64,000 bases of DNA. It comes from Narcine bancroftii (taxonomy: Eukaryota). The notes beneath the pieces are model-generated. The model ran no database searches, was not told where the DNA came from, and saw nothing but the letters and a program-made list of their open reading frames with translations. A program made the position numbers and the translations under genes. Numbering within the stretch: the first letter of the stretch is position 1; the number at the start of each line of letters is the position of its first letter. This document shows, in pieces, positions 513 to 64,000 of this stretch. The stretch is from positions 190,340,001 to 190,404,000 of the forward strand of contig NC_091473.1 in NCBI RefSeq assembly GCF_036971445.1, read 5' to 3'.

Positions 513-1143
513 ATGGAAAACAAGAGGAACATCCAGATCATTGAGTGGGAAGACTTGGACAAGAGAAAATTCTACCTCTTTGGCCTGCTAATGACCATGG
601 TCATCCGGCTCAGCATCTACCCCTTCACCTTGATCCGCACCCGACTGCAGGTGCAGAAGGGGAAGAGCCTGTACTCCGGCACATTCGACGCCTTCGGCAA
701 GATCCTGCGTTCCGAGGGCCCTGCGGGCCTTTACCGTGGCTTCCTGGTCAACACTTTCACCCTCATCTCCGGCCAGTGCTACGTCACCACCTACGAGCTC
801 ACCCGCAAGTATGTGGCGCGCTACCACAGCAGCAACGCTGTGAAGTCGGTGATCGCTGGGGGCTCTGCCTCCCTGGTGGCCCAGAGCATCACTGTGCCCA
901 TCGACGTGGTGTCCCAGCACCTCATGGTCCGTGGCCAGGCCATGGGCCGCTTCGGGGAGTGCCCCGCTGTGCCGACGTCTGGCCCTGTCGCCCGCCGCCT
1001 GTTCGTGGGGCACACCAAGGAGGTGATGGCGCAGATTTTCCGACTTGACGGACTCCGGGGCTTCTACAGGGGATACGCCGCCTCCCTCATGACCTACATC
1101 CCCAACAGCGCACTGTGGTGGCCCTTCTACCACCTCTACGCCG
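513..1143 (+). CDS. SLC25A44: SLC25A44 mitochondrial carrier, coding exon 1 (210 codons plus phase-1 G)
   Basis: MENKRNIQIIEWEDLDKRKFY...YPFTLIRTRLQVQ...VPIDVVSQHLM...LWWPFYHLYA carries carrier-signature motifs. Acceptor cag| at 499-501 precedes the ATG, so a 5'UTR exon lies upstream. Donor G|gtgggt at 1143/1144. Confidence 0.96.
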
Positions 1144-1214
1144 GTGGGTATCTCGGGTTCATTGCTGTGGGTGCCAAGCTCCACGGGCGAGCTGTCTAGC
1201 TGGTCATCGCACAC

Positions 1215-2495
1215 CTCGGACAGCCCTTCAGCCCGACTTGACCACACTGCTCCCACCTTCCCATATCCCTCAAAACCTGTCCTATCCATTGGATCCATCT
1301 GAATGTCCCACCTGCACAGGACCCACCCGTCCACATCCCTCTAAACCCGTCCTATCCATGGATCTATCCAAACATTCCACCCACACTGGTCCCACGACCC
1401 TCTAAACCCGCACTATCCATGGATCTATCCAAATGTCCCACCTGCCTGCGTTTGGCCCCATATCTTTCTAGACCCATCCTATTCATGGATCCGACCAATA
1501 TTTTTAAAAACATTGCAATAGTCTCTGCCCCATCCACCTCTTCAGCCGCCCATTCCACACACTCAACACCCTCTGTATATTAAAAAAAAGTTACTCCTCA
1601 GGTTTCCGTTGGGATGTAGAAATGAGGGAGGCAATGTACCCCCCTCGTCGTAAACCTCTGATTCCCCTACTCGGGGCAAACTCTGTGTTGGCCTGATCTA
1701 TTCCTCTCTTGATGTTGTCCACCACTGTGAGATCACCCCTCATCCTCCTGTGCCCCAAGGGATAAAGCCCTAGCTTTTCTCAACATCTTTCCTGTAGCTC
1801 AGGCCCCTGAGTCCTGGCAACGTCCTCATCAATCTTCTCCAGCTCGACAACATCTTGCCTTCAGCGCAGTGACCAAAACTGAACACAATCCTCCTAATAG
1901 GACCTCACAACTGCAATGTGACTTCCTAACACCTGTACTCAATACTCTAACAAATGAAGGCCAATGTGCAGAAAGTTTTTATGATCACCCTAACGACATG
2001 TTATTCCTCTTTTAAGGTACTGTGTGCCTGTACTCCTTGACCCCTCTGCTCCACCACCCTCCCCCAGACCCCTCTGCTCCACCACCCTCCCCCAGACCCC
2101 TCTGCTCCACCACCCTCCCCCAGACCCCTCTGCTCCACCACCCTCCCCCAGACCCCTCTGCTCCACCACCCTCCCCCAGACCCCTCTGCTCCACCACCCT
2201 CCCCCAGACCCCTCTGCTCCACCACCCTCCCCCAGACCCCTCTGCTCCACCACCCTCCCCCAGACCCCTCTGCTCCACCACCCTCCCCCAGACCCCTCTG
2301 CTCCACCACCCTCCCCCAGACCCCTCTGCTCCACCACCCTCCCCCAGACCCCTCTGCTCCACCACCCTCCCCCAGACCCCTCTGCTCCACCACCCTCCCC
2401 CAGACCTGTACCATTCACAATGTAGGACCTAAACACTTCAAATCTCCCGAAATACAACATCTCACATTTCTCTGTATTATATTCTATCCACCATT
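1215..2495 (-). mobile_element. CR1 LINE 3' fragment containing two internal tandem expansions
   Basis: Typical CR1 RT C-terminal and 3'UTR sequence (..KCEMLYFGR.., gaccaaaactgaacacaat), homologous to other CR1 copies in the window. Confidence 0.8.
2039..2404. repeat. 28-bp minisatellite GACCCCTCTGCTCCACCACCCTCCCCCA, about 13 perfect copies
   Basis: Directly visible. Confidence 0.97.
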
Positions 2496-2990
2496 CAAGA
2501 TTTAAAATTATTTTATTGTAATGTAATAGAACAGGAAATGTAATATTCCACATAATTTCCTTCAGTCGACCGTAAGGCAGACGAAGATTCACCGTCGGTG
2601 GAAATTGCCCAGCGCGCCTTACAGTCAGAAAAAGAGAAGCAAAAGTGGGGCCCCTCAGAGCTGCCGAGTGTCCAATGATTCGCCTCCAATGGTCCCGCAG
2701 CCGTACAGACTTCAGTCCAAACCCTTGGTGACCCAAGCTCCAGAGCATAAACTCCAACACAATCAGGAACAGTCTCGCATTCCAGTTCCGATACCTGGTA
2801 CCCCTTTTGGCCAGACTCCAGCCGCTTGCAGTCTGTTGCGTTCCTTGACTGCGGTCAGCCGCAGTGTTCCTCTCCTCGAGTCACCGACAGTCCACTGCCC
2901 ACCTGCCCAACCGATCGAGATCCTGCTCCAATCTTTGGTCACCGTCTTCATTATCTCAAGTACCCTCGAGTACCAGACACTTTAGTGGGA
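2495..2990. mobile_element. Unclassified dispersed repeat (related copies at about 16950-17560, and inverted at about 29510-29700)
   Basis: Shared blocks ccgtaaggcagac..ttcaccgtcgg..acagtcaga..gagtgtcc..gattcgcctcca. Confidence 0.6.
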
Positions 2991-3289
2991 CAGTGCAGGG
3001 AAACATTTTGGCGCCAAAGGGCCTGTTTCTGTGCTGTAATATTCTATGGTTCTAAGTGCACGCACATTTCTCTTGGAACACGGTCCAATAACTTACTAAC
3101 CACAGATGTTAAGGCTCCCTGCCTGCAGTTCCCAGCGTTTTCCATGCAACCCTTGAACGGCAGTACAACATTTGCCACCCTCCTAAACCTCAGTCCAGGG
3201 TACCTCCCTGAGTTCCCCGCCGTGTCCTCGCAACACGTCTGATCAGGCACTGGCGATTTCTCCACCTTTATACACATCAGGGCCTTCAT

Positions 3290-5480
3290 AGAAACCTAGA
3301 AAAATAGGTGCAGGATTCGGCCATTTGGCCCTTCAAGCCTACCCAGCCATTCAATATGATCATGGCTGACCAGTACCTGGTTCCTGCCTTCTCCTCATGC
3401 TCCCTGATGCCCTTCGTCACAAGGGCCAAATCTAACCTACTCTTAAATATTGACAAGGAACCAGCCTTGACTACTACCTGTGGCAAAGAATTCCATAGAT
3501 GCACCGCTCTCTCAGAAATTTTTCCTCATCTCAGTCCTAAAAAACTTTCCCCTTATCCTTAAACTGTGACCACCTGGTTCTGGTTTTTTCCAGCATTGGA
3601 AACAACGTTCCTGCATCTCGTCTGTCTAAACTTTTAAGAATTTTATATATTTCTATAAGATCCCCCCTTCTAAATTCCAGAGAATACAAGCCTAGTCTTC
3701 ATATGCAAGTCCTTCCATCCCTGGTATCAGTCTAATGAACCTTCTCTGCACCCCCTCCATGGTGAGGATGCCCTTCCTCAGATAAGGAGACCAAAACTGC
3801 ACGCAGTCCTCCAGATGTGGTCTCACCAAAGCCCTGTACAGCCCACCACCTTTGTACTCCTGTAAAGCCCTTCAACTGTAATACTGTAACCTCTCTTAAC
3901 TGGAATTCAAGCAACTGGCAAAAAAATAAATTCATGGAAAATAAATAGGTAAAAAATGCAGACATTTAAAATTGGCGTGCCCTGCAATTGGTTCACTTCT
4001 CCAGCAAGTACTAATCCCCAGAGGAGCCAGATACCACTGTACTGACTGTTCTCAAGATCCTGTTATTGACGGCCCTGAGATCCCCAGTCCTTGTGTCTTT
4101 CTCCAGAGTAAAAACAGAGGAGCACTCACTGGGAACATTGCCCATCTCCTGCGACTCCACACAAAGTTGACCACATTGGGGTCCGATATTTCCCCTGGTT
4201 TCGCTCTTTCTCCATTGATTGAGTCTCTTGGGATTGTCCCTAGAACCTTGCAGTAGAGAAAGCAGGCTGTTTGGCCCTTCTAGTCTGTGCCACACTATAA
4301 TTCTGCCTCGCCCCACTGACCTGCACCCAGTCCATAGCCCTCCACACCCCTCCCATCCATGTACCTGTCCAAATTCTTCTCAAATGTTAAAATTGAGCCC
4401 CGCATTCACCTCATCAGCTGGCAGCTCGTTCCACCTCTCTCTGTGTGAAGAAGTCCCCGCTAAACCTTTCCCCTTTCACCCTTAGCCTGTGTCCTCCGGT
4501 TTGTATCTCACCAACCCTCAGTGGAAAAAGCCAACCTGCATTTACGCTGTCCATCCCCCTCATAATTTTAAATACCTCTAACAAATCTCCCCTCTTTCTA
4601 CACTCTGGGAAATAAAGTCCAAACTTGCAACTCAGTTTCTGAAGTCCAGGCAACATCCTAGCAAACCTTCTCTGCACTCCTTCAATCTTATTGATATCTT
4701 TCCTGTAGTTTGGTGATCAAAACTGCACTCAGTGCTCCAAATTTGGCCTTACCAATGTCTTACACAACTTTACCAGAACATCCCAACTTCTATATTCAAG
4801 ACTTTGATTGATGGAGGCCAGTATGCCAAAAGCTCTCTTTACAACTCCGTCCACTTGTGATGCCACTTTCAGGGAATGATGTATCTGTATTCCCAGACCC
4901 CTCTGTTCTGCCGCACTCCTCAGTGATCGACTGTTTACCGTGCATGTCCTACCTTGGTTTGTCCTTCCAAAATGCAGCACCTCCCACTTGGCTGCATGAA
5001 ATTCCATCTGCCGTTTTGCAGCCCATTTTTCTTCGCTGTCCTCAACGCCTCCAATCTTAGTCTCATCAGCAAACTTGTTGATCCAATTCGCCACATTATC
5101 ATCCAGATCATTGATCTAGGCAACAAATAGCAACGCGCCCAGCACCGATCCCTGAGGCACCAGCATTAGTCACAGGCCTCCAGTCTGAGAAGAGATCGTC
5201 CACCTCTACTCCCCGGCCTCTCCCGTGATGCCAACGTCAAATCCAGTTTACTACCTCACCCTGAATACCGAGTGTCTGAACCTTCCATATGTCAAAGGCC
5301 TCACGATAGCCAAGTTAAACAACATCCACAGTCTTCCCTTCATCAACCTTCCTGGTAAACATCAAAAATCTCTAAGATTGGTTAAACACAACCTACCAAG
5401 CACAAAGCCAAATTGACTATCCGAGATCAACCCCTGCCTATCCAAATACTGGTATATCCTATTTCTTGGAGTGCCTTCCA
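3290..5480 (-). mobile_element. Cluster of CR1 LINE fragments
   Basis: Minus-strand ORFs MHLWNSLPQVVV.., MQRRFARMLPGL.., KFADETKIGG..KWEVLHFGRTNQ..LVRPNLEH. The interval may include one short + strand piece near 3970-4250. Confidence 0.85.
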
Positions 5481-5598
5481 AGAATTTAACAACCATGTTA
5501 TTAGCCAGAACTATCTCCTGCCCCCTTTCTACCCTCCTGACTTCTTTGTTTCAGCTTGTCCTGCAGTTCCTAAAATTCCTCCAGGTAAACATTAATAA

Positions 5599-5804
5599 CA
5601 CAATGCTGGAGAAACCCAACCAGTCAAACACGGTACTTTACGTAGCAAAGATAAAAATAAATAACCAACGTTTCAGGCCTGAGCCCTCCATCGAGTTTGG
5701 CCCATACCTTAACGAAGGGCTCAAGCCCGATACGTTGGTTATGTATCTTGATCTTTGCTACATAAAGTACCGTGTTTGACCTGTTGGGTTTCTCCAGCAT
5801 TGTG
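5599..5804. repeat. About 93-bp-arm inverted repeat from a Penelope-like element terminus, with degenerate hammerhead-like cores
   Basis: cacaatgctggagaaacccaac...gagccctccatc pairs with gaagggctcaagcc...gtttctccagcattgtg. Confidence 0.8.
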
Positions 5805-6129
5805 CTTTCCCCTTTAACCACAGTGTCTGCAGACTTTTGTGTTTTACCTCCAGGTATACACTTGGTTTCAGCTGCCCGTACCTGCCCCATGCTGCCTTCG
5901 TGCTGTTAGATCAGTGCTTGTACATCTGACCCTTCACTCTAACAGGATGTGCGTGTCCTGGACTTCTAAAAAAAAAACACCTTCCATTTTCCTTGTGCTC
6001 CTCTCCCGTCAAAACCACTTATTCCAATTAATTTAGTTCTTGTCTCCACCTTTCAAAATTTAGCTTTCTTCAATTCCAAATTTTAACTTGGGGGCTCTGA
6101 CTGGTATCGCTCCAGATCCACAGATCGCT

Positions 6130-6730
6130 CAAGGTTGGTTGGAGAGTTAAGAAGGCCTGTGGGATGCTGGCCTTCATTAGTCAGGGGGGATTCAGCTCTG
6201 GAGTCGTGAGGTCATGTTTGCTTCGCTATATTATTTCTGGTGAGGCCCAAACTTAGAGCATTGTGTTCTGTTCCAGTCACCTCCATACAGGAATGATGTG
6301 GAAGCTACGGAGAAGGGGCAGAGGAGATTCACCAGGATGTTACCTGGATTAGAGAAAGTGTCTATTGAGGAAGGGTTAACAGAGCTGGGAGCTTTTTTTC
6401 CCTTTGGAGCGAAGGCTGCACGGATAAGGCGACGGCCAGCGCCTCTTTCCCAGGGCGGGAGTAGCGAACATCAGATGACAACGTCCGTACAAAGTGAAGG
6501 GAGGAAGGTTTAGAGAAGACGTCAGGGGTAGATTTCTTTTACACAGAGAGCGAGCTGTGGGGGCCTGGAATGCATTGCCAGGGGTGGTGGTGGAGGCTGG
6601 AACATTAGGGGCATTTAAGGGACTCTGAGACAGGCTCATCGATGAAAGAAAAATTGAGTTTTGAGGTAGGGAGGGTTTTCTTTATCTTTAGAAGGTATAC
6701 ACACCATTGTGGGTCAAAGGGCCTGTACTG
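6130..6730 (+). mobile_element. CR1 LINE 3' fragment
   Basis: EKGQRRFTRMLPGLEKVS.. followed by the CR1 3' tail (aaagggcctgtactg). Confidence 0.85.
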
Positions 6731-7084
6731 TTATATATAAAGTTAAAATCCCCAACTATGAAAACCTTATTTGTCCTACAGATGGCAGCAATCTACTGCA
6801 AATTGACTCCTCCAATTCCCATTGACATTTGGGGCCCTGTGGAACAGGTGAAACAAGGTCCTCATACCTTCATTGTTCTCATGGACTGACACACATTGCA
6901 TGGACTGACACACATTGCAGTGTCCCCCTCTGCCTGTTGCCATGACCACTCCCCAACCAACAACACACACTCCCACTTTAATCTCCACCTCTGTCTACCC
7001 TGGAAAGTTGAAGTGCCAGTCCTAACCCTTTCCGACCGAGGATTCTGTAGCGGTGACGACCTCCCATCCACGTGTGTCCATCCA

Positions 7085-7832
7085 TCACCGTGTAATACTG
7101 GGGAACTGTACCCGTGGCGATAGGTCTGTCAGTGTGTAACACTGGAGTACAGTACTGGTGGGGATGGGTCTGAACCTGTGTAACACCGGGGTACATTACT
7201 GGTGGGGACGGGTCTGTCCCTGAGTAACACCGGGATACAGTATTGGTAGGGATGGGTCTGTCCCTGTATAACACTGGAGAACCATACTGGTGGGGACAGG
7301 TCTGTCCCTATATAATACTGGAGAACCGTTCTGGTGGGGACGGGTCTGTCCCTGTGTAACACTGGGTACAGTACTGGTGGGGATGCGTCTGTCTCTATAT
7401 AACACCGGGGTATGGTACTGGTAGTGGGGGTGGGTCTCTCCCTGTGTAACTCTGGGGTACAGTACTGGTGGGGGCGGATCTGTCACTTTATAACACTGGG
7501 GTACAGTATTGGTGGGGATGGGTCTGCCTTGTATAACACCGGGGTACAGTACTGATGGGTACGGTCTCTCACTGTAACACCGGGGTACAGTACTGGTGGG
7601 GCCAGGTTTGTCCCTGTGTAACACTGGGGTACAGGACTAGTGGGGCTGGGTCTGTCCCTGTGTAACTCTGGGGTACGGTACTGGTGGGGCCGGGTCTGTC
7701 CCTGTGTAACACTGGGGTACAATACTGGTGGGGCCGGGTCTGTCCCTGTGTAACACCTGGATACAGTAGTGGTGGGGACGGGTCTGTCCCTGTGTTACAC
7801 CGGGGTACAGTACTGGTGGGGCCGGGTCTGTA
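7085..7832. repeat. About 44-bp minisatellite (AACACTGGGGTACAGTACTGGTGGGGCCGGGTCTGTCCCTGTGT), about 17 diverged copies
   Basis: Period of 44 measured between 7681 and 7725. Confidence 0.93.
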
Positions 7833-7891
7833 CCATATCCTGTTGTACTGTATTTCACATAACCCTCTCCCCTTCTGTCCTGTGGGTACAG

Positions 7892-8019
7892 AGCAGCTCT
7901 CCTATGTTACTCCGACTGTGTGCCCCCACCTCGTGGTTCAGGCTGTTGCTGGACCTTTGGCCGCTGCCACATCTTCCACCCTCACCAACCCCATGGACGT
8001 CATCCGAGCTCGAGTACAG
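7892..8019 (+). CDS. SLC25A44: SLC25A44 coding exon 2 (128 nt)
   Basis: tacag| acceptor, then (E)QLSYVTPTVCPHLVVQAVAGPLAAATSSTLTNPMDVIRARVQ and |gtaagg donor. Phase 1 in, phase 0 out. Confidence 0.96.
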
Positions 8020-8061
8020 GTAAGGGATGACGTGCTGCAGGTTCACGGTGTCTCCATTCTA

Positions 8062-8665
8062 TCCTCGTCCCTGCCCTGGTCCTCATCCCTGCCCTGGTCC
8101 TCATCCCTGCCCTGGTCCTCATCCCTGCCCTGGTCCTCATCCCTGCCCTGGTCCTCATCCCTGCCCTGGTCCTCATCCCTGCCCTGGTCCTCATCCCTGC
8201 CCTGGTCCTCATCCCTGCCCTGGTCCTCATCCCTGCCCTGGTCCTCATCCCTGCCCTGGTCCTCATCCCTGCCCTGGTCCTCATCCCTGCCCTGGTCCTC
8301 ATCCCTGCCCTGGTCCTCATCCCTGCCCTGGTCCTCATCCCTGCCCTGGTCCTCATCCCTGCCCTGGTCCTCATCCCTGCCCTGGTCCTCATCCCTGCCC
8401 TGGTCCTCATCCCTGCCCTGGTCCTCATCCCTGCCCTGGTCCTCATCCCTGCCCAGGTCCTCATCCCTGCCCAGGTCCTCATCCCTGCCCTGGTCCTCAT
8501 CCCTGCCCTGGTCCTCATCCCTGCCCTGGTCCTCATCCCTGCCCTGGTCCTCATCCCTGCCCTGGTCCTCATCCCTGCCCTGGTCCTCATCCCTGCCCTG
8601 GTCCTCATCCCTGCCCTGGTCCTCATCCCTGCCCTGGTCCTCATCCCTGCCCTGGTCCTCATCCC
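8062..8665. repeat. 18-bp minisatellite CCCTGCCCTGGTCCTCAT, about 33 copies
   Basis: Directly visible; two adjacent units carry the same T>A variant (about 8455, 8473). Confidence 0.97.
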
Positions 8666-9265
8666 TCGCCTCGGTCCACCCTCCCTCCCTCCCCTAGCCT
8701 CGGTCCACCCTCCCTCCCTCCCCTAGCCTCGGTCCACCCTCCCTCCCTCCCCTAGACTCGGTCCACCCTCCCTCCCTCCCCTAGCCTCGGTCCACCCTCC
8801 CTCCCTCCCCTAGCCTCGGTCCACCCTCCCTCCCTCCCCTAGCCTCGGTCCACCCTCCCTCCCTCCCCTAGCCTCGGTCCACCCTCCCTCCCTCCCCTAG
8901 CCTCGGTCCACCCTCCCTCCCTCCCCTAGCCTCGGTCCACCCTCCCTCCCTCCCTCCCCTAGCCTCGGTCCACCCTCCCTCCCTCCCTCCCCTAGCCTCG
9001 GTCCACCCTCCCTCCCTCCCCTAGCCTCGGTCCACCCTCCCTCCCTCCCCTAGCCTCGGTCCACCCTCCCTCCCTCCCTCCCCTAGCCTCGGTCCACCCT
9101 CCCTCCCACCCCTAGCCTCGGTCCACCCTCCCTCCCACCCCTAGCCTCGGTCCACCCTCCCTCCCTCCCCTAGCCTCGGTCCACCCTCCCTCCCTCCCCT
9201 AGCCTCGGTCCACCCTCCCTCCCTCCCCTAGCCTCGGTCCACCCTCCTTCCCCTCGGTCCACCCT
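8666..9265. repeat. 29-bp minisatellite CCTAGCCTCGGTCCACCCTCCCTCCCTCC, about 19 copies
   Basis: Period 29, with occasional extra CCCT. Confidence 0.95.
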
Positions 9266-9269
9266 CCCT

Positions 9270-9481
9270 CCCCTCCCTCGTCGGGCCTCCCTCCCCTCCC
9301 TCGTCTGGCCTCCCTCCCCTCCCTCGTCTGGCCTCCCTCCCCTCCCTCGTCTGGCCTCCCTCCCCTCCCTCGTCTGGCCTCCCTCCCCTCCCTCGTCTGG
9401 CCTCCCTTCCCTCCCTCGTCTGGCCTCCCTCCCCTCCCTCGTCTGGACTCTCTCCCCTCCCTCGTCTGGCCTCCCTCCCCT
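9270..9481. repeat. 23-bp minisatellite CCCTCGTCTGGCCTCCCTCCCCT, about 9 copies
   Basis: Directly visible. Confidence 0.93.
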
Positions 9482-9533
9482 GCTGGTCCTGCATTGCTTC
9501 TCCATCCACCACTCGCGCACTTCCCCCATCGCG

Positions 9534-12500
9534 GTCTTCCCCCCCGTCGCAGTCTTCCCCCCGTCGCAGTCTTCCCCCCGTCGCAGTCTTCCCCCGTCGC
9601 AGTCTTCCCCCGTCGCAGTCTTCCCCCCGTCGCAGTCTTCCCCCCGTCGCAGTCTTCCCCCCGTCGCAGTCTTCCCCCGTCGCAGACTTCCCCCGTCGCA
9701 GTCTTCCCTCCGTCGCAGTCTTCCCCCCGTCGCAGTCTTCCCCGTCGCAGTCTTCCCCCGTCGCAGTCTTCCCCCGTCGCAGTCTTCCCCCCGTCGCAGT
9801 CTTCCCCCCGTCGCAGTCTTCCTCCCGTCGCAGTCTTCCCCCCGTCGCAGTCTTCCCCCCGTCGCAGTCTTCCCCCCGTCGCAGTCTTCCCCCCGTCGCA
9901 GTCTTCCCCCCGTCGCAGTCTTCCCCCGTCGCAGTCTTCCCCCCGTCGCAGTCTTCCCCCCGTCGCAGTCTTCCCCCCGTCGCAGTCTTCCCCCCGTCGC
10001 AGTCTTCCCCCCGTCGCAGTCTTCCCCCCGTCGCAGTCTTCCCCCCGTCGCAGTCTTCCCCCCGTCGCAGTCTTCCCCCCGTCGCAGTCTTCCCCCCGTC
10101 GCAGTCTTCCCCCCGTCGCAGTCTTCCCCCCGTCGCAGTCTTCCCCCCGTCGCAGTCTTCCCCCCGTCGCAGTCTTCCCCCCGTCGCAGTCTTCCCCCCG
10201 TCGCAGTCTTCCCCCCGTCGCAGTCTTCCCCCCGTCGCAGTCTTCCCCCCGTCGCAGTCTTCCCCCCGTCGCAGTCTTCCCCCGTCGCAGTCTTCCCCCC
10301 GTCGCAGTCTTCCCCCCGTCGCAGTCTTCCCCCCGTCGCAGTCTTCCCCCCGTCGCAGTCTTCCCCCCGTCGCAGTCTTCCCCCCGTCGCAGTCTTCCCC
10401 CCGTCGCAGTCTTCCCCCCGTCGCAGTCTTCCCCCCGTCGCAGTCTTCCCCCCGTCGCAGTCTTCCCCCCGTCGCAGTCTTCCCCCCGTCGCAGTCTTCC
10501 CCCCGTCGCAGTCTTCCCCCCGTCGCAGTCTTCCCCCGTCGCAGTCTTCCCCGTCGCAGTCTTCCCCCGTCGCAGTCTTCCCCCGTCGCAGTCTTCCCCC
10601 CGTCGCAGTCTTCCCCCCGTCGCAGTCTTCCCCCCGTCGCAGTCTTCCCCCGTCGCAGTCTTCCCCCCGTCGCAGTCTTCCCCCCGTCGCAGTCTTCCCC
10701 CCGTCGCAGTCTTCCCCCCGTCGCAGTCTTCCCCCCGTCGCAGTCTTCCCCCCGTCGCAGTCTTCCCCCGTCGCAGTCTTCCCCCGTCGCAGTCTTCCCC
10801 CCGTCGCAGTCTTCCCCCGTCGCAGTCTTCCCCCCGTCGCAGTCTTCCCCCCGTCGCAGTCTTCCCCCCGTCGCAGTCTTCCCCCCGTCGCAGTCTCCCC
10901 CCCGTCGCAGTCTCCCCCCCGTCGCAGTCTCCCCCCGTCGCAGTCTTCCCCCGTCGCAGTCTTCCCCCCGTCGCAGTCTTCCCCCCGTCGCAGTCTTCCC
11001 CCCGTCGCAGTCTTCCCCCCGTCGCAGTCTTCCCCCCGTCGCAGTCTTCCCCCCGTCGCAGTCTTCCCCCCGTCGCAGTCTTCCCCCCGTCGCAGTCTTC
11101 CCCCCGTCGCAGTCTTCCCCCCGTCGCAGTCTTCCCCCCGTCGCAGTCTTCCCCCCGTCGCAGTCTTCCCCCCGTCGCAGTCTTCCCCCCGTCGCAGTCT
11201 TCCCCCCGTCGCAGTCTTCCCCCCGTCGCAGTCTTCCCCCCGTCGCAGTCTTCCCCCCGTCGCAGTCTTCCCCCCGTCGCAGTCTTCCCCCCGTCGCAGT
11301 CTTCCCCCCGTCGCAGTCTTCCCCCCGTCGCAGTCTTCCCCCCGTCGCAGTCTTCCCCCCGTCGCAGTCTTCCCCCCGTCGCAGTCTTCCCCCCGTCGCA
11401 GTCTTCCCCCCGTCGCAGTCTTCCCCCCGTCGCAGTCTTCCCCCCGTCGCAGTCTTCCCCCCGTCGCAGTCTTCCCCCCGTCGCAGTCTTCCCCCCGTCG
11501 CAGTCTTCCCCCCGTCGCAGTCTTCCCCCCGTCGCAGTCTTCCCCCCGTCGCAGTCTTCCCCCCGTCGCAGTCTTCCCCCCGTCGCAGTCTTCCCCCCGT
11601 CGCAGTCTTCCCCCCGTCGCAGTCTTCCCCCCGTCGCAGTCTTCCCCCCGTCGCAGTCTTCCCCCCGTCGCAGTCTTCCCCCCGTCGCAGTCTTCCCCCC
11701 GTCGCAGTCTTCCCCCCGTCGCAGTCTTCCCCCCGTCGCAGTCTTCCCCCCGTCGCAGTCTTCCCCCCGTCGCAGTCTTCCCCCCGTCGCAGTCTTCCCC
11801 CCGTCGCAGTCTTCCCCCCGTCGCAGTCTTCCCCCCGTCGCAGTCTTCCCCCCGTCGCAGTCTTCCCCCCGTCGCAGTCTTCCCCCGTCGCAGTCTTCCC
11901 CCCGTCGCAGTCTTCCCCCCGTCGCAGTCTTCCCCCCGTCGCAGTCTTCCCCCCGTCGCAGTCTTCCCCCCGTCGCAGTCTTCCCCCCGTCGCAGTCTTC
12001 CCCCGTCGCAGTCTTCCCCCCGTCGCAGTCTTCCCCCCGTCGCAGTCTTCCCCGTCGCAGTCTTCCCCCGTCGCAGTCTTCCCCCCGTCGCAGTCTTCCC
12101 CCGTCGCAGTCTTCCCCCCGTCGCAGTCTTCCCCCCGTCGCAGTCTTCCCCCCGTCGCAGTCTTCCCCCCGTCGCAGTCTTCCCCCGTCGCAGTCTTCCC
12201 CCCGTCGCAGTCTTCCCCCGTCGCAGTCTTCCCCCCGTCGCAGTCTTCCCCCCGTCGCAGCCTTCCCCCCGTCGCAGTCTTCCCCCCGTCGCAGTCTTCC
12301 CCCCGTCGCAGTCTTCCCCCCGTCGCAGTCTTCCCCCGTCGCAGTCTTCCCCCCGTCGCAGTCTTCCCCCCGTCGCAGTCTTCCCCCGTCGCAGTCTTCC
12401 CCCGTCGCAGTCTTCCCCCGTCGCAGTCTTCCCCCCGTCGCAGTCTTCCCCCCGTCGCAGTCTTCCCCCCGTCGCAGACTTCCCCCCGTCGCAGTCTTCC

Positions 12501-14426
12501 CCCCGTCGCAGTCTTCCCCCCGTCGCAGTCTTCCCCCCGTCGCAGTCTTCCCCCCGTCGCAGTCTTCCCCCCGTCGCAGTCTTCCCCCCGTCGCAGTCTT
12601 CCCCCCGTCGCAGTCTTCCCCCCGTCGCAGTCTTCCCCCCGTCGCAGTCTTCCCCCCGTCGCAGTCTTCCCCCCGTCGCAGTCTTCCCCCCGTCGCAGTC
12701 TTCCCCCCGTCGCAGTCTTCCCCCCGTCGCAGTCTTCCCCCCGTCGCAGTCTTCCCCCCGTCGCAGTCTTCCCCCCGTCGCAGTCTTCCCCCCGTCGCAG
12801 TCTTCCCCGTCGCAGTCTTCCCCCCGTCGCAGTCTTCCCCCCGTCGCAGTCTTCCCCCCGTCGCAGTCTTCCCCCCGTCGCAGTCTTCCCCCCGTCGCAG
12901 TCTTCCCCCCGTCGCAGTCTTCCCCCCGTCGCAGTCTTCCCCCCGTCGCAGTCTTCCCCCCGTCGCAGTCTTCCCCCGTCGCAGTCTTCCCCCGTCGCAG
13001 TCTTCCCCCCGTCGCAGTCTTCCCCCCGTCGCAGTCTTCCCCCCGTCGCAGTCTTCCCCCCGTCGCAGTCTTCCCCCGTCGCAGTCTTCCCCCCGTCGCA
13101 GTCTTCCCCCGTCGCAGTCTTCCCCCCGTCGCAGTCTTCCCCCCGTCGCAGTCTTCCCCCCGTCGCAGTCTTCCCCCCGTCGCAGACTTCCCCCGTCGCA
13201 GTCTTCCCCCCGTCGCAGTCTTCCCCCCGTCGCAGTCTTCCCCGTCGCAGTCTTCCCCCGTCGCAGTCTTCCCCCCGTCGCAGTCTTCCCCCCGTCGCAG
13301 TCTTCCCCCGTCGCAGTCTTCCCCCCGTCGCAGTCTTCCCCCCGTCGCAGTCTTCCCCCGTCGCAGTCTTCCCCCCGTCGCAGTCTTCCCCCGTCGCAGT
13401 CTTCCCCCCGTCGCAGTCTTCCCCCGTCGCAGTCTTCCCCCCGTCGCAGTCTTCCCCCGTCGCAGTCTTCCCCCCGTCGCAGTCTTCCCCCCGTCGCAGT
13501 CTTCCCCCCGTCGCAGTCTTCCCCCCGTCGCAGTCTTCCCCCGTCGCAGTCTCCCCCCGTCGCAGTCTTCCCCCGTCGCAGTCTTCCCCCCGTCGCAGTC
13601 TTCCCCCCGTCGCAGTCTTCCCCCGTCGCAGTCTTCCCCCCGTCGCAGTCTTCCCCCCGTCGCAGTCTTCCCCCCGTCGCAGTCTTCCCCCCGTCGCAGT
13701 CTTCCCCCCGTCGCAGTCTTCCCCCCGTCGCAGTCTTCCCCCCGTCGCAGTCTTCCCCCCGTCGCAGTCTTCCCCCCGTCGCAGTCTTCCCCCCGTCGCA
13801 GTCTTCCCCCCGTCGCAGTCTTCCCCCCGTCGCAGTCTTCCCCCCGTCGCAGTCTTCCGCCCGTCGCAGTCTTCCCCCGTCGCAGTCTTCCCCCCGTCGC
13901 AGTCTTCCCCCCGTCGCAGTCTTCCCCCCGTCGCAGTCTTCCCCCCGTCGCAGTCTTCCCCCCGTCGCAGTCTTCCCCCCGTCGCAGTCTTCCCCCCGTC
14001 GCAGTCTTCCCCCGTCGCAGTCTTCCCCCCGTCGCAGTCTTCCCCCCGTCGCAGTCTTCCCCCCGTCGCAGTCTTCCCCCCGTCGCAGTCTTCCCCCCGT
14101 CGCAGTCTTCCCCCCGTCGCAGTCTTCCCCCGTCGCAGTCTTCCCCCCGTCGCAGTCTTCCCCCCGTCGCAGTCTTCCCCCCGTCGCAGTCTTCCCCCCG
14201 TCGCAGTCTTCCCCCCGTCGCAGTCTTCCCCCCGTCGCAGTCTTCCCCCCGTCGCAGTCTTCCCCCCGTCGCAGTCTTCCCCCGTCGCAGTCTTCCCCCC
14301 GTCGCAGTCTTCCTCCCGTCGCAGTCTTCCCCCGTCGCAGTCTTCCCCCCGTCGCAGTCTTCCCCCGTCGCAGTCTTCCCACCGTCGCAGTCTTCCCCCC
14401 GTCGCAGTCTTCCCCCCGTCGCAGTC
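9534..14426. repeat. 17-bp satellite GTCGCAGTCTTCCCCCC, about 290 copies (4.9 kb), with variable C-run length
   Basis: Directly visible; stop-free in all six frames. Confidence 0.98.
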
Positions 14427-14880
14427 TACCCCCCGCCCCGCTCTCCCCCCCCCGCCCCGCTCGCCCCCCCGCCCCGCTCGCCCCCCCGCCCCGCTCGCCC
14501 CCCGCCCCGCTCGCCCCCCGCCCCGCTCGCCCCCCGCCCCGCTCGCCCCCCGCCCCGCTCGCCCCCCCGCCCCGCTCGCCCCCCGCCCCGCTCGCCCCCC
14601 GCCCCGCTCGCCCCCCGCCCCGCTCGCCCCCCGCCCCGCTCGCCCCCCGCCCCGCTCGCCCCCCGCCCCGCTCGCCCCCCGCCCCGCTCGCCCCCCGCCC
14701 CGCTCGCCCCCCGCCCCGCTCGCCCCCCGCCCCGCTCGCCCCCCGCCCCGCTCGCCCCCCCGCCCCGCTCGCCCCTCGCCCCCCGCCCCGCTCGCCCCCC
14801 GCCCCGCTCGCCCCCCCGCCCCGCTCGCCCCCGCCCCCGCCCCCGCCCCGCTCGCCCCGCCCGCCCCGCTCGCCCCGCTC
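14427..14880. repeat. 16-bp GC-rich minisatellite CCCCCCGCCCCGCTCG
   Basis: Directly visible; each unit holds a GC box (GGGGCGGGG on the minus strand). Confidence 0.93.
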
Positions 14881-15200
14881 CCCCGCCGCCCCCCGCTCCC
14901 CCCTGCCGCCCCCCGCTCCCCCCTGCCGACCCCCGCTCCCCCCTGCCGACCCCCGCTCCCCCCTGCCGACCCCCGCTCCCCCCTGCCGACCCCCGCTCCC
15001 CCCTGCCGACCCCCGCTCCCCCCTGCCGACCCCCGCTCCTCCCTGCCGAACCCCGCTCCCCCCGCCGCCCGCCGCCCCCCGCTCCCCCCTGCCCCCCCGC
15101 TCCCCCCTGCCCCCCGCCTCCCCCCTGCCCCCCGCTCCCCCCTGCCCCCTCTCCCCCCTCCCCCCCGCTCCCCCTGCCCCCCTGCTCCCCCTGCCCCCTG
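14881..15200. repeat. 20-bp minisatellite CCCCCTGCCGACCCCCGCTC decaying into C-rich low complexity
   Basis: Directly visible. Confidence 0.88.
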
Positions 15201-15463
15201 CACTGGGACTTCCCGAGGTGCATCATAGTTCACTCTACTGCAGAATATGCTTGTCAGCCGCCATGTTCCACCCGAGCCTTTGCTCATCCTGTGAAACCCA
15301 CCCCCCTCAGCCTTCCCGAACTGATGGAGCCTTCCCTCTTCTCTGTCCCCCCTCCCCACTCCCCTTCCCCCTGAAGGTTGAGTGACCTTTGGAAACCCCC
15401 AGCCTTCCCAAACTGATGGAATTTTCTCTCTTTGCTCTCCCCCCACCCCCTCCCCCCCGGCAG

Positions 15464-15655
15464 GTTGAAGGACGCCACTCTATGCTTCAGACATTCAAGC
15501 AGCTGATAGTGGAAGAAGGTGCCTGGGGCCTGACCAAGGGTCTGTCCGCCCGCATCCTCTCCTCCACCCCTTCCGCCATCTGCATCGTGGTGGGCTACGA
15601 GACCTTGAAGAAGCTGAGCCTGCGCCCTGAGCTGGTGGACTCCCGCCACTGGTAA
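15464..15655 (+). CDS. SLC25A44: SLC25A44 terminal coding exon
   Basis: Pyrimidine tract and cag| acceptor, then VEGRHSMLQTFKQLIVEEGAWGLTKGLSARILSSTPSAICIVVGYETLKKLSLRPELVDSRHW*, the characteristic SLC25A44 C-terminus. Confidence 0.97.
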   Translation, partial: VEGRHSMLQTFKQLIVEEGAWGLTKGLSARILSSTPSAICIVVGYETLKKLSLRPELVDSRHW

Positions 15656-36082: not shown

Positions 36083-36099
36083 GTCTTACGGTCTTACAG

Positions 36100-58711: not shown

Positions 58712-59325
58712 ACTCTGGTAGAGCGGAGGGATCTGGGAACGCAGATACATCATTCCCTGAAAGTGGAGTCACAGGTGGGCAGGGGCGGAAAGAGAGCTTT
58801 TGGCATCTTGGCCTTCATCATTCAAAGTATTGAGTGCAGGAGTTGGGATGTTCTGGTCAAGTTGTGGAAGACATTGGTGAAGCCAGATTTGGAGCGTGGC
58901 GGACAGTTTGAAAGAGGGAAGAGTAGATTTCCTAGAATACGGCTAGGACTTCACGAAATGAGTTACAGGAAAAGGTTAAAAACAGGTGAGGACTTGATTC
59001 CCTGGAGTGTAGAAGAGTGAGGGTGAGATTTGATCGAGGTGTTTAAAACTGATGAGGGGGACGGACAAGAGTCAATGTGGGTGGGATTTTTCCACTGAGG
59101 GTGGGGGAGACAGGTTAAGGGTGAAGGGGAAAAGTTTAGGGGGATTTTCTTCACACAGAGAGGGGTGGGCCGAGCTGAGGTGGTGAATATTAACACTTAA
59201 GAAGAATTTGGGCGGGTGCATGGATGGGAGGGGTATGAACTGGGGGAAGATCAGTGGGTCCAGGCAGAAAGAGGGATTGACACCGACGAGAAGGGCCAAA
59301 GGGTCCTATTTCTGTGCTGTAAGTG
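58712..59325 (+). mobile_element. CR1 3' fragment
   Basis: KRAFGILAFIIQSIECRSWDVLVKLWKTLVKPDLE. Confidence 0.85.
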
Positions 59326-59589
59326 GAGGGCATAGTATGTGTACCCACAATTAGCGGTGATTCTGCTTGGCCTGCATGTATGTGACCTGAGAACCAGTCT
59401 GTTCAAAACCAGATTGGGGGCGAGTTTCCACCCCACGACCCTTCTCCTGACCCCACCCCTTCTTAAACAGAGCCGCTTTGCAGACAGGAGAACTGGAGCG
59501 GGTTCGGGAGTTCGAGGAACCCAATCGCACTGCTTTGTCTTCACCTGTCCGGAGCGATTGTCTCTGTGCCGCGTCTCCTGTGGTCTCTG

Positions 59590-60072
59590 ATGGTCTGGAT
59601 TCCAGGTGAGGTCGGGGGGGGGGCTATTCCCCATTTTTTATAACCCCTTCCCCTCTAACTGAGCCGGGTTGGACCTTTTCGCGCCTTGTTTTCCCTCGTT
59701 CAGTGGTTTTTATTGTGTCATTGAATGTGTTCTGCCATTGGTTGAACTCGATCAGACCCCAATGTCAGACCCCCTCTCTACGGGACAGAGCGCCTGCTTG
59801 GAGTGTCGAATGCAGGGCACGAGCATTGGAAAATACCACATTTGCTGGTACCGACAGTGACCCGGAGCCAGTCCAGAGTGGGTATTGGTCCACCAGCCAG
59901 ATAATACAATCTACCGAGGCAGGGGGTTCACCAGATGATTCGACCCATCCAGAGACCCCTCGGCCACCTTGATCATTTGCAGCCTGGAAGCGGGAGACTC
60001 CGCCGTCTACTACTGCAGGGATATGGACCGGTGCATGGGTGTTCGGGCCTGGAACCATGTTGGTCGTAACAA
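59590..60072 (+). pseudogene. Germline-joined (VJ) immunoglobulin light-chain pseudogene, sigma-cart/type I (NS5)-like
   Basis: V: LDQTPMSDPLSTGQSACLEC..CWYRQ*PG..WVLVH..YRGRGFTR*FDPSRD..DSAVYYC. J: WVFGPGTMLVVT follows directly (+1 frame), then phase-1 donor A|gtgagt at 60072/60073. No RSS. Probable decayed leader exon at 59590-59605 with intron to 59703 (low confidence). Confidence 0.88.
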
Positions 60073-60224
60073 GTGAGTGAACTCAAGTAACTTTTCAGGA
60101 CTTTTATCTCGAGATTTGAGAATCTTTATCAATTCATTTTGTCCTTGAGCACAGAAGATGTCAGTAAACTGTTGGGACCCCGCGCTGGAGAGACATTCTG
60201 AAGGTTCCCCCTCAGCCAGGTGTG

Positions 60225-60780
60225 GTTTTACCTTGGCTGACCCCCCCCCCCCTCAGATTGGTGTGTGCGCGCCCCCAGCGGCGGCGACTCAGCCCACCTC
60301 TTGGCTGAATGTAGATTGGTGAAGAGTGCGTGGGCGGGGTCCTCGACCCGGATCATCCTCCAGTAGCAGCTCTGACCCGGGGACACGCAGACACCCAGGA
60401 CGGCTTGGGTGACCGTCAGCTCCGGAGAAGGGGGCACTTTGGCCGGCCTGAAACCCTGTCGGTCTCCCAGCGCACGGAGATGTGGGTGAGGGAAGGCTGC
60501 CGATTGGCACATTCCAGGCTGCAGGAGTCCATGCTGAGGGGCGTGTGGGGTGCAGTCAACGTGAGGGCACTCCAGGGAAGGACCGCAGCCTAGAGACCTC
60601 CAATTACTGGCCATAGAGGGGCTGAGACCAAGGGGAAGCCCCTCAAACAATGGAGGGGATGGGAGAACCAACAGGGGGCATCAGGGGTGGTAATGGTGTA
60701 AATGGAATCGAACATAACAATATACAATGACCGGGAATGTGGGGATATTTAAGTACGGGTGGGAACAAATTCTCAACGGG
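60225..60780 (+). mobile_element. Tx1-like LINE 3' fragment
   Basis: AHLLAEC..RLAHSRLQESMLRGVWGAVNVRALQGRTAA*; homologous to 55750-56330. Confidence 0.6.
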
Positions 60781-61009
60781 GTTTCTTTTTGCAAACAATA
60801 CAGTCTGTTTTTGGTTTTTATAATGTCCCATCGAGCCCCACCATGGCTGGTCTGATTGTAACCCCAACTGCGCCATCCCCTACCCGAGTTTATCACGAAG
60901 CCCCAACACCGTCACTCGAGGACAAGTCCGTTAGGCTCTGCGATGACACCTCCCCTGGCTTATCTCCAGTGGGATCTGTCTGCTGGGTCTCCCACAAGCG
61001 ACACTGAGC

Positions 61010-61805
61010 ATGGGAACAGGCCAAATTTGGAGCATTATGTGCAGTTTTGGTCACTGAACTACAGGAAAGAGATCAATAAGATAGAAAGAGCACAGAGAAG
61101 ATTTACTAGGATGTTGCCAGGACTTCAGGAACTCCGTTACAGGGAAAGGTTAAACAGGTTCAGACTTTATTCCCTGGAGCGTAGAAGAATGAGGGGCAAT
61201 TTGATGGAGGAATTTAAAATTATGAGGGGGATTGACAGAGTCAATGTAGGTCGGCTTTTTTCCAGAGGGTGGGTGAGATACAAACCAGAGGATGTGGGTT
61301 AAGGGTGAAAGGGGAAAAGTTTAGAGGGAACATTAGGGGGAAGTTCTTCACACAGCGAGTGGTGGGAGTGTGGAACGAGCTTCCAGCTGAAGTGGTGAAT
61401 GTGGGCTCAATTTTAATTAAAAAAAATTGCAGCTGGCCAATTCCGCCCTACGGGTGCGTGCCGCCAAAACTACATCCCATTAACCTGCACCCCGGAAAGT
61501 TTTTGAAGGGTGTGAGGAAACGGAAGCCCCTGGAGGAAACCCCATGCAGGCACGGGGAGAATGTACAAACTCCTTACAGACAGCACAGGATTTGTACCCA
61601 GATCCAGTCCCGATCGCTGGTGCCGTAGAGCACAGTGCTGACCATTTTGCCAACATTTAAAAAGAATTTTTACAGGTACATGGATGGGAGCGGTATGGAG
61701 GGCGATGGACAGGGTGCACGTCAGTGGGGCGAGGCAGAATAATAGTTTGGCACAGGCTAGAAGGGCCTGTTTCTGTGCTGTAAGGTTTTATGGCTCTAAT
61801 GTTTA
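61010..61805 (+). mobile_element. CR1 3' fragment with a minus-strand V-SINE inserted at about 61415-61650
   Basis: RPNLEHYVQFWS..AQRRFTRMLPGL..FFTQRVVGVWNELP; SINE motif ggggagaatgtacaaactccttacagac. Confidence 0.85.
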
Positions 61806-62007
61806 TTATTTTTTTCTACCAAGAACATCAAGGGAAATCTCTGCCCCTCTCTCTGAAGCTCGGCGACAACTTTTCCCTTGCACAATACTTCATATAGGGC
61901 CTCACCAATGTCTTACACAATAGTAACATGACCTCCCAACTCCGGGACAACAGTCTGACCGCTGAAGGCCAATGTGTCAATGGCCTTTTTTTTTTTTAAA
62001 CACCCTA

Positions 62008-64000
62008 TTTTTTTTTTGAAGACTTTATTTAAAATTTTATAACATGAATACAATAGAGAATTACATTTAAAGAAATTTTTTTTTAAAATTAAAATGGTAT
62101 GATTACAATATTACATCAGAAAACTACACAAAATAACCCCCCCCGTTAATTGTAACACAATATTAATAGTCTAACTTAAAATTAGTCCAACCCTCCCCCC
62201 CCTCAAATAAAGAGTGAAGAGTTAATAAAATTAACAATATTATATATGGAAAAAAATACCCACGTACAAAAAAAGAGTTAAAACTTAACCTAAAAAAAAT
62301 TCTAATAACAAAAATAATTGTCAATACTAAAATATCACACTTAAACATATTTTTAAATCAAACTTAAATGCATATAATTAGCAAACGGAGTCCACTTTAA
62401 CTTATAAAAAGACATCTTATCCTGAATTGAAAAAGATATCCTTTCCATAGTCAAACAAAATTTCATTTCCAAATACCACTTATCTAAAGTTAGTATATTT
62501 ATATCTTTCCAAGTAAGTGCTATGCATTTCTTAGCCACGACTAAAGCTAAATAGATAAATGAAATCTGATAATCCTCTAAACCTAAATCAATTAATGATT
62601 GGATGTTCCCTAATAAAAATATATCGGGATCTAATACGATGGATATTATATAAACTGTTAAAAATAGATTGAATACCTTTCCAAAACTGTTGCAATCGAT
62701 CACAAAGCCAAACAGTATGCAAAAAAGTATTGGCCATCTGATCACATCGAAAACAAGAATCCAACTTACTAAGACCAAATTTTTTAAATTTCTCCGGCGT
62801 TAAATATAGCTGATGAATAAAATTATAATTAATCATCGCTAGTCTAGCATTAATTAATTTCCGAATACTATTCTGACAAATTTCCATCCAAGCTTCTTCA
62901 GCTATTGTAAAACCTAAATCTTTTTCCATTGCAACTTATCTTTATCCCAGTCTTTTTTACTATCAATTTCTTGTAAAATACAATACAAATCAGATATATA
63001 TCCCTTTTTTGGTAATGAAAGTACATATTCTTCAAAACTAGATTCAGGCAATAAAATCATATGTCGACCACATAACTGTTTTACAAAAGATCTTAATTGA
63101 TAATATACAAATATAGAATTTGCACTAATACCATATTTCCTTTGTAATTCGTCAAAGGAACAAAAACAACCCTCAGAAAAACAATCAGATAAAATTTTTA
63201 TTCCTTTCTTTTCCCATTGTTTCAAAGTGGCATTGGAGACCGTAAAAGGAACAAGTTGATTATTATATAATGGCAATCTTCCAGAATATATATTTTTAAG
63301 TCCCAATTTTTAAAGTTTACTTGTCCATAAATTCAATAAATGTTTCAATATTGGTACATCATAAGTTCGTAATAAATTTTTATTTCATCGAAACAAAAAC
63401 TCATGAGGAAATTTTTCTAAAATAACCGCCATTTCTATCTTTACCCAACTAGGTGGGTCGTCCATATTCATTAATGCACTAAGAAATTTGAATTGAGCTG
63501 CTTCATAATAATGCTGAAAATTCGGTAATCTTAAACCTCCAAATTGAAAATCCCACATCAATTTTCTCATTGCTACTCTCAGAAATTTTCCCTTCCGTAA
63601 GAATTCTCTAATCGCTTTATATAAGTCTTTAAAAATCTTTTTTTTTTAAATAAGGAATTGATTGAAACAAATATTGTATTCTAGGAAAAATATTCATTTT
63701 TATGGTATTAATCCTCCCTAGTAAACCCAAAGGTAGATCCCTCCACCTAATCAAATCTAATTTAATCCTTTTTATTAAAGGAAAATAATTAATCGAATAT
63801 AATTCTTGAAATTCCGTATTAACATTAATTCCTAAATATTTAATTTGTGTAGTCCACTTCAAATTTGTAATATTTTTATATACTGAATAATCATTTTCAC
63901 AAATTGGCAAAATTTCACTTTTAGCCCAATTTACTTTGTAACCAGATAATTGGCCATAAATTTCTAAACATTCTTGAATTGCAGGTAAAGAAGTATCCAA
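62008..64000 (-). mobile_element. L1-clade LINE 3' part (different subfamily, frameshifted), running off the window
   Basis: SGYKVNWAKSE..IKYLGI..GRINTIKMNIFPR..GGLRLPNF..YLTP..CFRC..H.VWLC, with a poly(A) (T-run) at about 62008-62017. Confidence 0.92.

What the first reader, a model, noticed from the sequence alone, without database searches (positions are those of the whole stretch)
59590..60080. Germline-joined Ig light-chain VJ pseudogene in a non-Ig neighbourhood
Seen: V and J are fused with 25 nt between the Cys (60014-60016) and Phe (60042-60044) codons and no heptamer or nonamer. The J splice donor and a probable leader intron are retained, so this is a DNA-level join and not a retrocopy. 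Lesions are two TGA stops at expected Arg positions (59858, 59936; CGA>TGA type), a short FR3 deletion and a +1 shift. Established: cartilaginous fishes carry germline-joined IgL clusters attributed to RAG activity in germ cells. Inference: the extra base lies in the presumably V-encoded CxxW (aggg run), so the join was probably in frame (8-aa CDR3, xIWTGAWV) and once functional. No C exon is visible in the following 3.9 kb. Human SLC25A44 is on 1q22 in an MHC-paralogous region, so the linkage may bear on antigen-receptor locus origins, though three assembly gaps separate the two genes.
Basis: partly seen in the sequence, partly recalled or inferred. Interest (0 to 1): 0.7.

Follow-up and report, generated by a model that had tools for sequence, protein, structure and literature searches.

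The report
Dead pre-joined ray antibody gene
This is a broken copy of a ray antibody light-chain gene (sigma-2 class) whose V and J pieces are already fused in the genome, as is known for this class in skates; the fusion likely happened in a germ cell, and its place among housekeeping genes likely marks an old home of this gene family rather than a random insertion.

Summary
Real, mostly ordinary. The fused V-J, both TGA stops and the 25-nt Cys-Phe gap are as described. It is a sigma-2 (sigma-cart, type I) light-chain pseudogene of an electric ray, and a whole leader-VJ-C minicluster: the C exon lies 2.6 kb past the window end. All 11 other sigma-2 V copies found in this genome are also joined (33-nt CDR3; four intact). 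This copy has +1 before the conserved Trp and 9 nt fewer after it, plus lost start codon, lost V acceptor and a frameshifted C end. Joined sigma-2 is published for skates, gar and turtles. Two additions: (1) four V-less J relics on contig C12, two with a 23-bp-spacer RSS, show a split ancestor in this lineage; whether this copy's 8-aa join is a separate event is unresolved. (2) It sits gap-free 18 kb from RBM8A in a human-1q21-23-like block, and sigma-2 shares a contig with SLC25A44 in 4 of 6 other elasmobranchs. No PBX gene is near, so the 'MHC paralogon' reading is weak. The scan earlier noted joined sigma (not sigma-2) genes in this genome.

The parts
59190..59556 (+). promoter/5' region homologous to intact sigma-2 clusters on contig C12
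   Evidence: 75% over 59190-60280 to C12:1147855-1149033
59557..59605 (+). leader exon; start codon reads ATT where the intact copies have ATG; donor GT at 59606
   Evidence: paralog transcripts skip 59606-59726
59606..59726 (+). leader intron; acceptor reads AT instead of AG
59727..60016 (+). sigma-2 V exon to the second Cys; TGA at 59858 and 59936; 9-nt FR3 deletion near 59966
60017..60041 (+). CDR3/junction, 25 nt: +1 before the conserved Trp, 9 nt shorter after it than 11 of 11 paralogs; no RSS
60035..60072 (+). J segment (WVFGPGTMLVVT frame), donor GT at 60073
60073..64000 (+). J-C intron, cut by the window end; homologous to the C12 intron at 60073-60280 and 61659-61989, with LINE-like insertions between. 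It runs on 2,636 bases past the window to the sigma-2 C exon (G000:C11 from 190406637; locus L017 from 2637), which is open for 97 codons and frameshifted at its end. An RBM8A exon follows at G000:C11:190424501-190424992 (minus strand) with no N between.
513..15652 (+). neighbour: SLC25A44, three coding exons, the only copy found in this genome
32990..36778 (+). neighbour: two-exon divergent actin-like gene (start approximate)

Best explanation
It is a dead, complete leader-VJ-C minicluster of the Ig light-chain sigma-2 class in an electric ray, with V and J fused in the genome, likely by RAG-type recombination in the germ line of an ancestor, and likely left in place as an old duplicate near the family's home locus. 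Steps: (1, shown) a split sigma-2 cluster existed in this lineage: V-less J relics with a 23-bp-spacer RSS remain on contig C12. (2, inferred from the relics and from Lee et al. 2000) germ-cell V-J joining removed the RSS pair and the joined gene was fixed. (3, shown) clusters were duplicated as DNA with both introns and the C exon. (4, inferred) this copy worked for a time as a fixed-CDR3 light chain, then decayed through CpG stops, indels and loss of start and splice sites; it is predicted to make no protein now.
For: V groups with horn shark type I and the sawfish protein that PMC12227049 labels IgLS2 (92/98), C likewise (99/99), and C pairs with the intact C12 copies (99/94); V identity 48-68% to sigma-2 rows against 24-42% to the other rows. 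12 of 12 sigma-2 V copies found are joined. Collinear homology with a C12 cluster from window 56875 to about 5.3 kb past the window end, C exon included. Relic J units: leader exon, no V, heptamer 6/7 + 23-nt spacer + nonamer 6/9 in 2 of 4 (shuffle P about 0.0007), heptamer partly deleted in the other 2. Short-read contigs of 875 nt span the junction without a difference at depth 5.0 against 4.3-4.5 for unique flanks (these runs may be the assembly's source). Decay: V dN/dS 0.93, frameworks 0.79; 14 derived residues here against 4 in the intact copy; 6 of 19 CpG decayed here against 0 of 13.
Against: No P or N nucleotides can be read from so eroded a junction, so RAG is inferred, not shown. 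No second individual covers the junction (run X5 covers only 60147-60345 of this copy), and the tissue of the DNA runs is not on record. C12 could not be placed on C11 by sequence. Pseudogene C copies on C12 give similar dN/dS (0.42-0.45), so 0.35 is modest evidence of past function.
Confidence: 0.82

Rival explanations
1. The copy records a separate germ-line join: an 8-aa in-frame CDR3 made independently of the 11-aa join carried by all other sigma-2 copies, so electric rays joined sigma-2 at least twice.
For: It is the most divergent joined copy (V 16-24%, J+intron 16-24%). In promoter/leader DNA the split relics are closer to the intact joined genes (12-13%) than this copy is (18%). In the unrooted J+intron tree it falls with the relics against the other joined copies (bootstrap 88). 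It keeps ancestral V residues that the intact copy has changed (4). The shortfall is exactly 9 nt and abuts the J start seen in the relics. 18 of 21 stingray, manta and sawfish sigma-2 models have 8-aa CDR3 (14 by pattern, 4 read by eye), so that length is viable.
Against: No outgroup DNA, so the trees cannot be rooted; midpoint rooting of the J+intron tree puts the relics outside all joined copies, which needs one join only. This copy also carries a 9-nt FR3 deletion, so in-frame deletions do occur in it. The A before the J Trp codon is also in 1 of 11 paralogs. A pseudogene branch can be long through faster decay; the C-exon tree is unresolved (45).
Confidence: 0.42
2. The copy is an orphan dispersed from a sigma-2 locus elsewhere (for example the IgH/TCR complex), and its place beside SLC25A44 is incidental.
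For: Published sigma-2 loci lie at the IgH/TCR complex in great white shark (Table S1 of PMC12227049), gar and bowfin. That complex is on the same contig 15-25 Mb away (TCR-like V array 205.1-206.9 Mb, multi-C1 clusters 207.5-208.2 and 215.6 Mb, PSMB5 212.6 Mb), so C12 could belong there. The sawfish data disagree with linkage.
Against: Two independent pseudo-clusters lie inside the 1q21-23-like block, 2.4 Mb apart. In the stingray the IgH/TCR complex is on chromosome 26 and the search of Table S1 shows no row named IgL there, while in a related stingray sigma-2, SLC25A44 and the actin-like gene share one contig length. A bamboo shark agrees.
Confidence: 0.3
3. The join is somatic: DNA from a B-cell clone was assembled.
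For: The tissue of the sequenced DNA is not on record; no second individual covers the junction.
Against: A single contig spans the join at the depth of the unique flanks, no split form shows among the listed joints or loose ends, all paralogs are joined, no V with an RSS was found, and the gene has 16-24% divergence and many lesions on both sides of the join.
Confidence: 0.02
4. It is a primordial never-split VJ gene (UrIg- or NCR3-like) or a retrocopy.
For: Single-exon VJ without RSS, outside the IgH/TCR complex.
Against: Both domains nest inside sigma-2 with a ray-specific sister; one C1 exon, not three or more; both introns kept at paralog positions; split relatives with RSS exist.
Confidence: 0.01

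Closest known systems
Skate (Raja erinacea) type I = sigma-2 light-chain clusters, all germline-joined (PMC2192082, abstract)
   Same: Same isotype, batoid host, V-J-C miniclusters, every V found joined, paralogs differing mostly in CDRs
   Different: Electric ray; about a dozen copies rather than 89 or more; this copy is dead; unjoined J relics with RSS persist in the genome
Nurse shark NS4 (kappa) joined and split genes, with pseudogenes (PMC2193156) and NS5 (sigma-2) joined gene and pseudogene (PMC5192425 passage)
   Same: Joined and split members in one family; joined pseudogenes; germ-line RAG-like joining as the proposed origin
   Different: There the split genes are intact and junctions can be traced; here the split relics lack V and the junction is too eroded
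Sigma-2 loci of great white shark, gar and bowfin at the IgH/TCR complex (PMC12227049 Table S1; PMC5985310; PMC8423624)
   Same: Same isotype; joined in gar, coelacanth and turtle
   Different: This copy lies in a human-1q21-23-like block 15 Mb from that complex
UrIg / UrIg2 non-rearranging VJ genes (PMC12227049)
   Same: Single VJ exon, split leader
   Different: Those have three or more C1 domains and form their own clade; this is an ordinary light chain derived from a rearranging family

Membership tests
Ig light chain sigma-2 (sigma-cart, type I, NS5) | V domain groups with named sigma-2 sequences | tested here: met
   clade support 92/98 with horn shark CAA33375 and sawfish XP_051901911; no named nurse-shark sigma, kappa or lambda rows in the tree, the genome's own other light chains served instead
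Ig light chain sigma-2 (sigma-cart, type I, NS5) | single C1 domain of sigma-2 type | tested here: met
   99/99; 59-81% identity to sigma-2 rows, 38-44% to others
Ig light chain sigma-2 (sigma-cart, type I, NS5) | split leader and V-J-C minicluster | tested here: met
Ig light chain sigma-2 (sigma-cart, type I, NS5) | 23-bp-spacer RSS at J in unjoined members (12/23 order; recalled for this class) | tested here: met
   2 of 4 relic J units; no V with a 12-bp RSS found to test the other half
Germline-joined Ig gene | V and J fused, RSS and spacer absent, introns kept | tested here: met
Germline-joined Ig gene | join present in non-lymphoid or germ-cell DNA of several animals | tested here: inconclusive
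   single-copy depth in runs X1 and X2 of one sample, tissue unknown; X5 does not cover the join
Germline-joined Ig gene | RAG-type coding joint (trimming, P or N bases) | tested here: inconclusive
   junction eroded; germline V end not available
Processed (retro) pseudogene | introns lost, J fused to C | tested here: not met
   leader intron and 6.6-kb J-C intron present
UrIg/UrIg2-type non-rearranging VJ gene | VJ outside the light-chain clades, three or more C1 exons | tested here: not met
   nested in sigma-2; one C1 hit at this locus
MHC paralogon core | hallmark genes such as PBX nearby (hallmark list recalled) | tested here: not met
   four PBX loci; nearest on this contig at 64 Mb; NOTCH and RXR not tested
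Human 1q21-23-like block | orthologs of 1q21-23 genes around the locus (human positions recalled) | tested here: met
   PSMB4 186.8, SLC25A44 190.34, RBM8A 190.42, SSR2 191.3, GLMP 191.4 Mb, weak PMF1-like hit 195.2 Mb

The most novel reading that the evidence does not exclude
This fossil marks an ancestral elasmobranch home of sigma-2 in the human-1q21-23-like block, separate from the IgH/TCR complex and shared by sharks and rays, and it preserves a germ-line RAG join made independently of both its living paralogs and the skate/stingray genes, so that batoid sigma-2 became all-joined through repeated germ-cell recombination rather than one ancient event.
Probability: 0.25. Interest if true: 0.58.

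Novelty: new member of a known kind. Interest (0 to 1): 0.33.

Why it matters
Joined sigma-2 genes in batoids have been in print since the 1990s, so the pseudogene itself adds little. What could matter: the RSS-bearing J relics make the old question of when and how often batoid type I genes were joined (timing left 'probable, but not conclusive' in PMC2193156) testable with a few more electric-ray genomes; and a conserved sigma-2 locus among 1q21-23 genes would add a light-chain address not found in the papers held here, which place light chains at the IgH/TCR complex and the human-chromosome-9 paralogon.

Tried and rejected
Expression: no RNA holder listed; in RNA-type runs 0 of 251 (X6) and 0 of 20 (X8) laid contigs were 99% alike or better and those shown carried paralog letters; contigs drop rare forms, so this is not used as evidence. 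Placing C12: its start holds the 3' half of a V-ATPase a-subunit gene, whose 5' half was not found anywhere; its satellite pattern occurs only on C12 (67 of 67 hits); a repeat query was uninformative. Pfam scans covered only the longest or best-scoring frames (147 of 744, 148 of 456, 127 further), so other genes can be missed. The SLC25A44 tree had unsettled bootstrap and does not by itself fix orthology to the human gene; synteny does. The idea that the electric-ray J was taken from the sigma class: J ends look alike, but the J-intron search listed no hit at the sigma locus on C8 among 40 scored. PDB searches listed no shark light chain among the best 60. My first reading, a late random dispersal with a deleted CDR3, was weakened by the synteny and tree results. 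Ohta et al. 2019 and Criscitiello and Flajnik 2007 were not held; they, the supplement PDF of PMC12227049 and the supplements of PMC10751288 were not seen and may already state the linkage.

Full report
Observation. The window is G000:C11:190340001-190404000 of a 3.3-Gb genome. The V frame reads from about 59741 to the Cys at 60014-60016 with TGA at 59858 and 59936, and the J frame (WVFGPGTMLVVT) is offset, with 25 nt between Cys and Phe and a GT donor at 60073. No heptamer-nonamer pair scoring 13 of 16 or better lies between leader and C exon.

A whole cluster. The C exon starts 2,637 bases past the window end, 83% identical to the C exon of an intact paralog, and homology to an intact cluster is collinear from 56875 to about 5.3 kb past the window end, with repeat insertions between. 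So this is a DNA duplicate of a leader-VJ-C minicluster, not a retrocopy or a lone VJ. Further lesions: ATT for the start codon, AT for the V acceptor, a 9-nt FR3 deletion, and 2-nt plus 3-nt deletions at the end of C.

Isotype and host. An intact paralog (P0002) finds 39 longer proteins; the best are elasmobranch light chains, among them horn shark CAA33375 and sawfish XP_051901911, which the methods of PMC12227049 label IgLS2. Trees place the window V in that group at 92/98 and the C at 99/99, with C sister to the intact copies of this genome at 99/94. PMC5985310 and PMC5192425 equate sigma-2, sigma-cart, type I and NS5. The nearest named proteins carry an electric-ray source label.

The family here. 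DNA and protein searches give 12 sigma-2 V copies: this one, one at C11:192.83 Mb and ten on the 1.9-Mb contig C12; 12 of 12 are joined and 4 are intact. Search counts are lower bounds. The 11 others all have 33 nt from Cys to Phe, 6 nt before the conserved Trp and 24 after; this copy has 7 and 15.

A split ancestor. Four J-only matches on C12 are units of promoter, leader exon, no V, spacer and J (two read in full). Two carry a heptamer (6 of 7), a 23-nt spacer and a nonamer (6 of 9) directly before J (shuffle P 0.00065 and 0.0008); in the other two a short deletion has damaged the heptamer. Their J and intron are 17-27% from the joined copies, and the spacer-RSS part was found only at these four places among 40 scored. 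This shows that the family descends from RSS-bearing segments. That RAG made the join in a germ cell follows from PMC2193156 and is inferred here.

One join or two. This copy is the most divergent joined member and keeps 4 ancestral V residues that the intact copy has changed. In promoter and leader DNA the split relics are nearer to the intact genes (12-13%) than this copy is (18%), which would mean two joins. In J and intron the distances are 17-19% and 16%, and midpoint rooting needs one join followed by a 9-nt loss. The C tree is unresolved. I leave it at about 0.4 for a separate join. Stingray, manta and sawfish gene models mostly show 8-aa CDR3 (18 of 21) with a different J end; their genomic state was not checked.

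Germline. In two DNA runs of one sample a single 875-nt contig spans the junction without a difference, at depth 5.0 against 4.3-4.5 for unique flanks in the run where both were seen. The sample may be the assembly's source and its tissue is not on record. A run of another study holds 198 nt of this copy's intron but not the join. Together with the age of the lesions, a somatic join is very unlikely.

Decay. Against an intact paralog dN/dS is 0.93 over V and 0.79 in frameworks, 0.35 in C (other pseudogene C copies 0.42-0.45). Fourteen V residues are derived here against four in the intact copy, and 6 of 19 CpG have decayed against 0 of 13 (in C the counts are 7 of 17 against 6 of 14, no asymmetry). 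Past function is plausible, present function is not.

Neighbourhood. SLC25A44 is single-copy and in the window. An RBM8A exon lies 18 kb past the C exon with no N between, which removes the worry about gaps. PSMB4, SSR2 and GLMP lie at 186.8, 191.3 and 191.4 Mb, a weak PMF1-like hit at 195.2 Mb, and V domains that I read as brevican- and nectin-like at 192.4 and 182-183 Mb (names recalled). Their human positions at 1q21-23 are recalled. No PBX gene is near. The IgH/TCR/PSMB5 complex described in PMC12227049 is 15-25 Mb further on.

Is the linkage old? The actin-like neighbour agrees in Hemitrygon and disagrees in sawfish. This is chromosome-level, not gene-order, evidence, and three of the four are close kin. 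A second pseudo-cluster 2.4 Mb away and the listing of C12 right after C11 fit a nearby source, but C12 could not be placed. Published sigma-2 loci of great white shark, gar and bowfin lie at the IgH/TCR complex, so the class may have two old addresses or may have moved. Searches found no paper in the held library that links sigma-2 to this block; two key papers were not held.

Papers seen. PMC2192082: abstract and references. PMC2193156: first part, passages, section 21. PMC12227049: parts 1-2 of 8, passages, section 15, Table S1 part 1 and a search of it. PMC10751288: passages and section 12. PMC5985310, PMC5192425, PMC8423624: passages. Others: search listings only.

Verdict. A real, dead, germline-joined sigma-2 light-chain cluster: a new member of a long-known kind. 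The RSS-bearing relics and the possible conserved address are modest, testable additions; the link to antigen-receptor origins is not supported by what I could test. Interest 0.33.

Noticed in passing
G000:C12 437.3, 640.5, 1138.7, 1337.5 kb (L013-L016, L048, L050): Four V-less units: promoter, leader exon, no V, spacer, degenerate 23-RSS, J and 200 nt of intron (two read in full), each about 10 kb upstream of an intact joined gene. A loose end in run X6 fits the leader spliced to an acceptor just upstream of this J, which would give a sterile transcript.
   Followed up: partly
G000:C11:192.775-192.827 Mb (L006, L047): Second sigma-2 pseudo-cluster; 33-nt CDR3; its C exon lies 51 kb upstream and inverted, beside a long GC-rich tandem-repeat array.
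   Followed up: partly
G000:C12 430-740 kb and 1130-1400 kb: The sigma-2 region occurs twice, about 700 kb apart, between satellite arrays; some copies are identical, so part may be an assembly duplicate.
   Followed up: no
G000:C8:289.1-289.2 Mb and C9:203.5-204.6 Mb (L111-L117): All 7 other light-chain V genes inspected are also joined (3 sigma-like, 4 on C9). No split light-chain V was seen, but kappa was not searched for; this ray may have no rearranging light chain.
   Followed up: partly
G000:C9:203.53-203.60 Mb versus 204.57-204.62 Mb: Two distinct joined light-chain types on C9 with different C domains. One could be a lambda-2-like class, which PMC5985310 did not find in cartilaginous fish; untested.
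   Followed up: no
G000:C11:205-216 Mb: TCR-like V array, IgH-like multi-C1 clusters and PSMB5: the antigen-receptor complex, on the same contig as the 1q21-23-like block.
   Followed up: partly
G000:C9:2.91-2.93 Mb (L121): A joined VJ domain with a very short CDR3 that groups with sigma-2 V; may be the receptor family of note e1-9862081.
   Followed up: no
G000:C12:4.8-14.9 kb: 3' half of a fifth V-ATPase a-subunit gene; 5' half missing from the assembly search.
   Followed up: partly
G000:C11:190.414-190.45 Mb (L018, L020, L021): Broken retroviral-type pol pieces (RT, RNase H, integrase) downstream of the C exon.
   Followed up: no
window 32990-36778: Two-exon divergent actin-like gene conserved across cartilaginous fishes (55-63% to other species) and on the same contig as SLC25A44 in three of them.
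   Followed up: partly
L007-L012 (C12 pseudogenes): Six pseudogene V copies are 36 nt longer than the intact ones; the three aligned show the insertion in CDR2.
   Followed up: no
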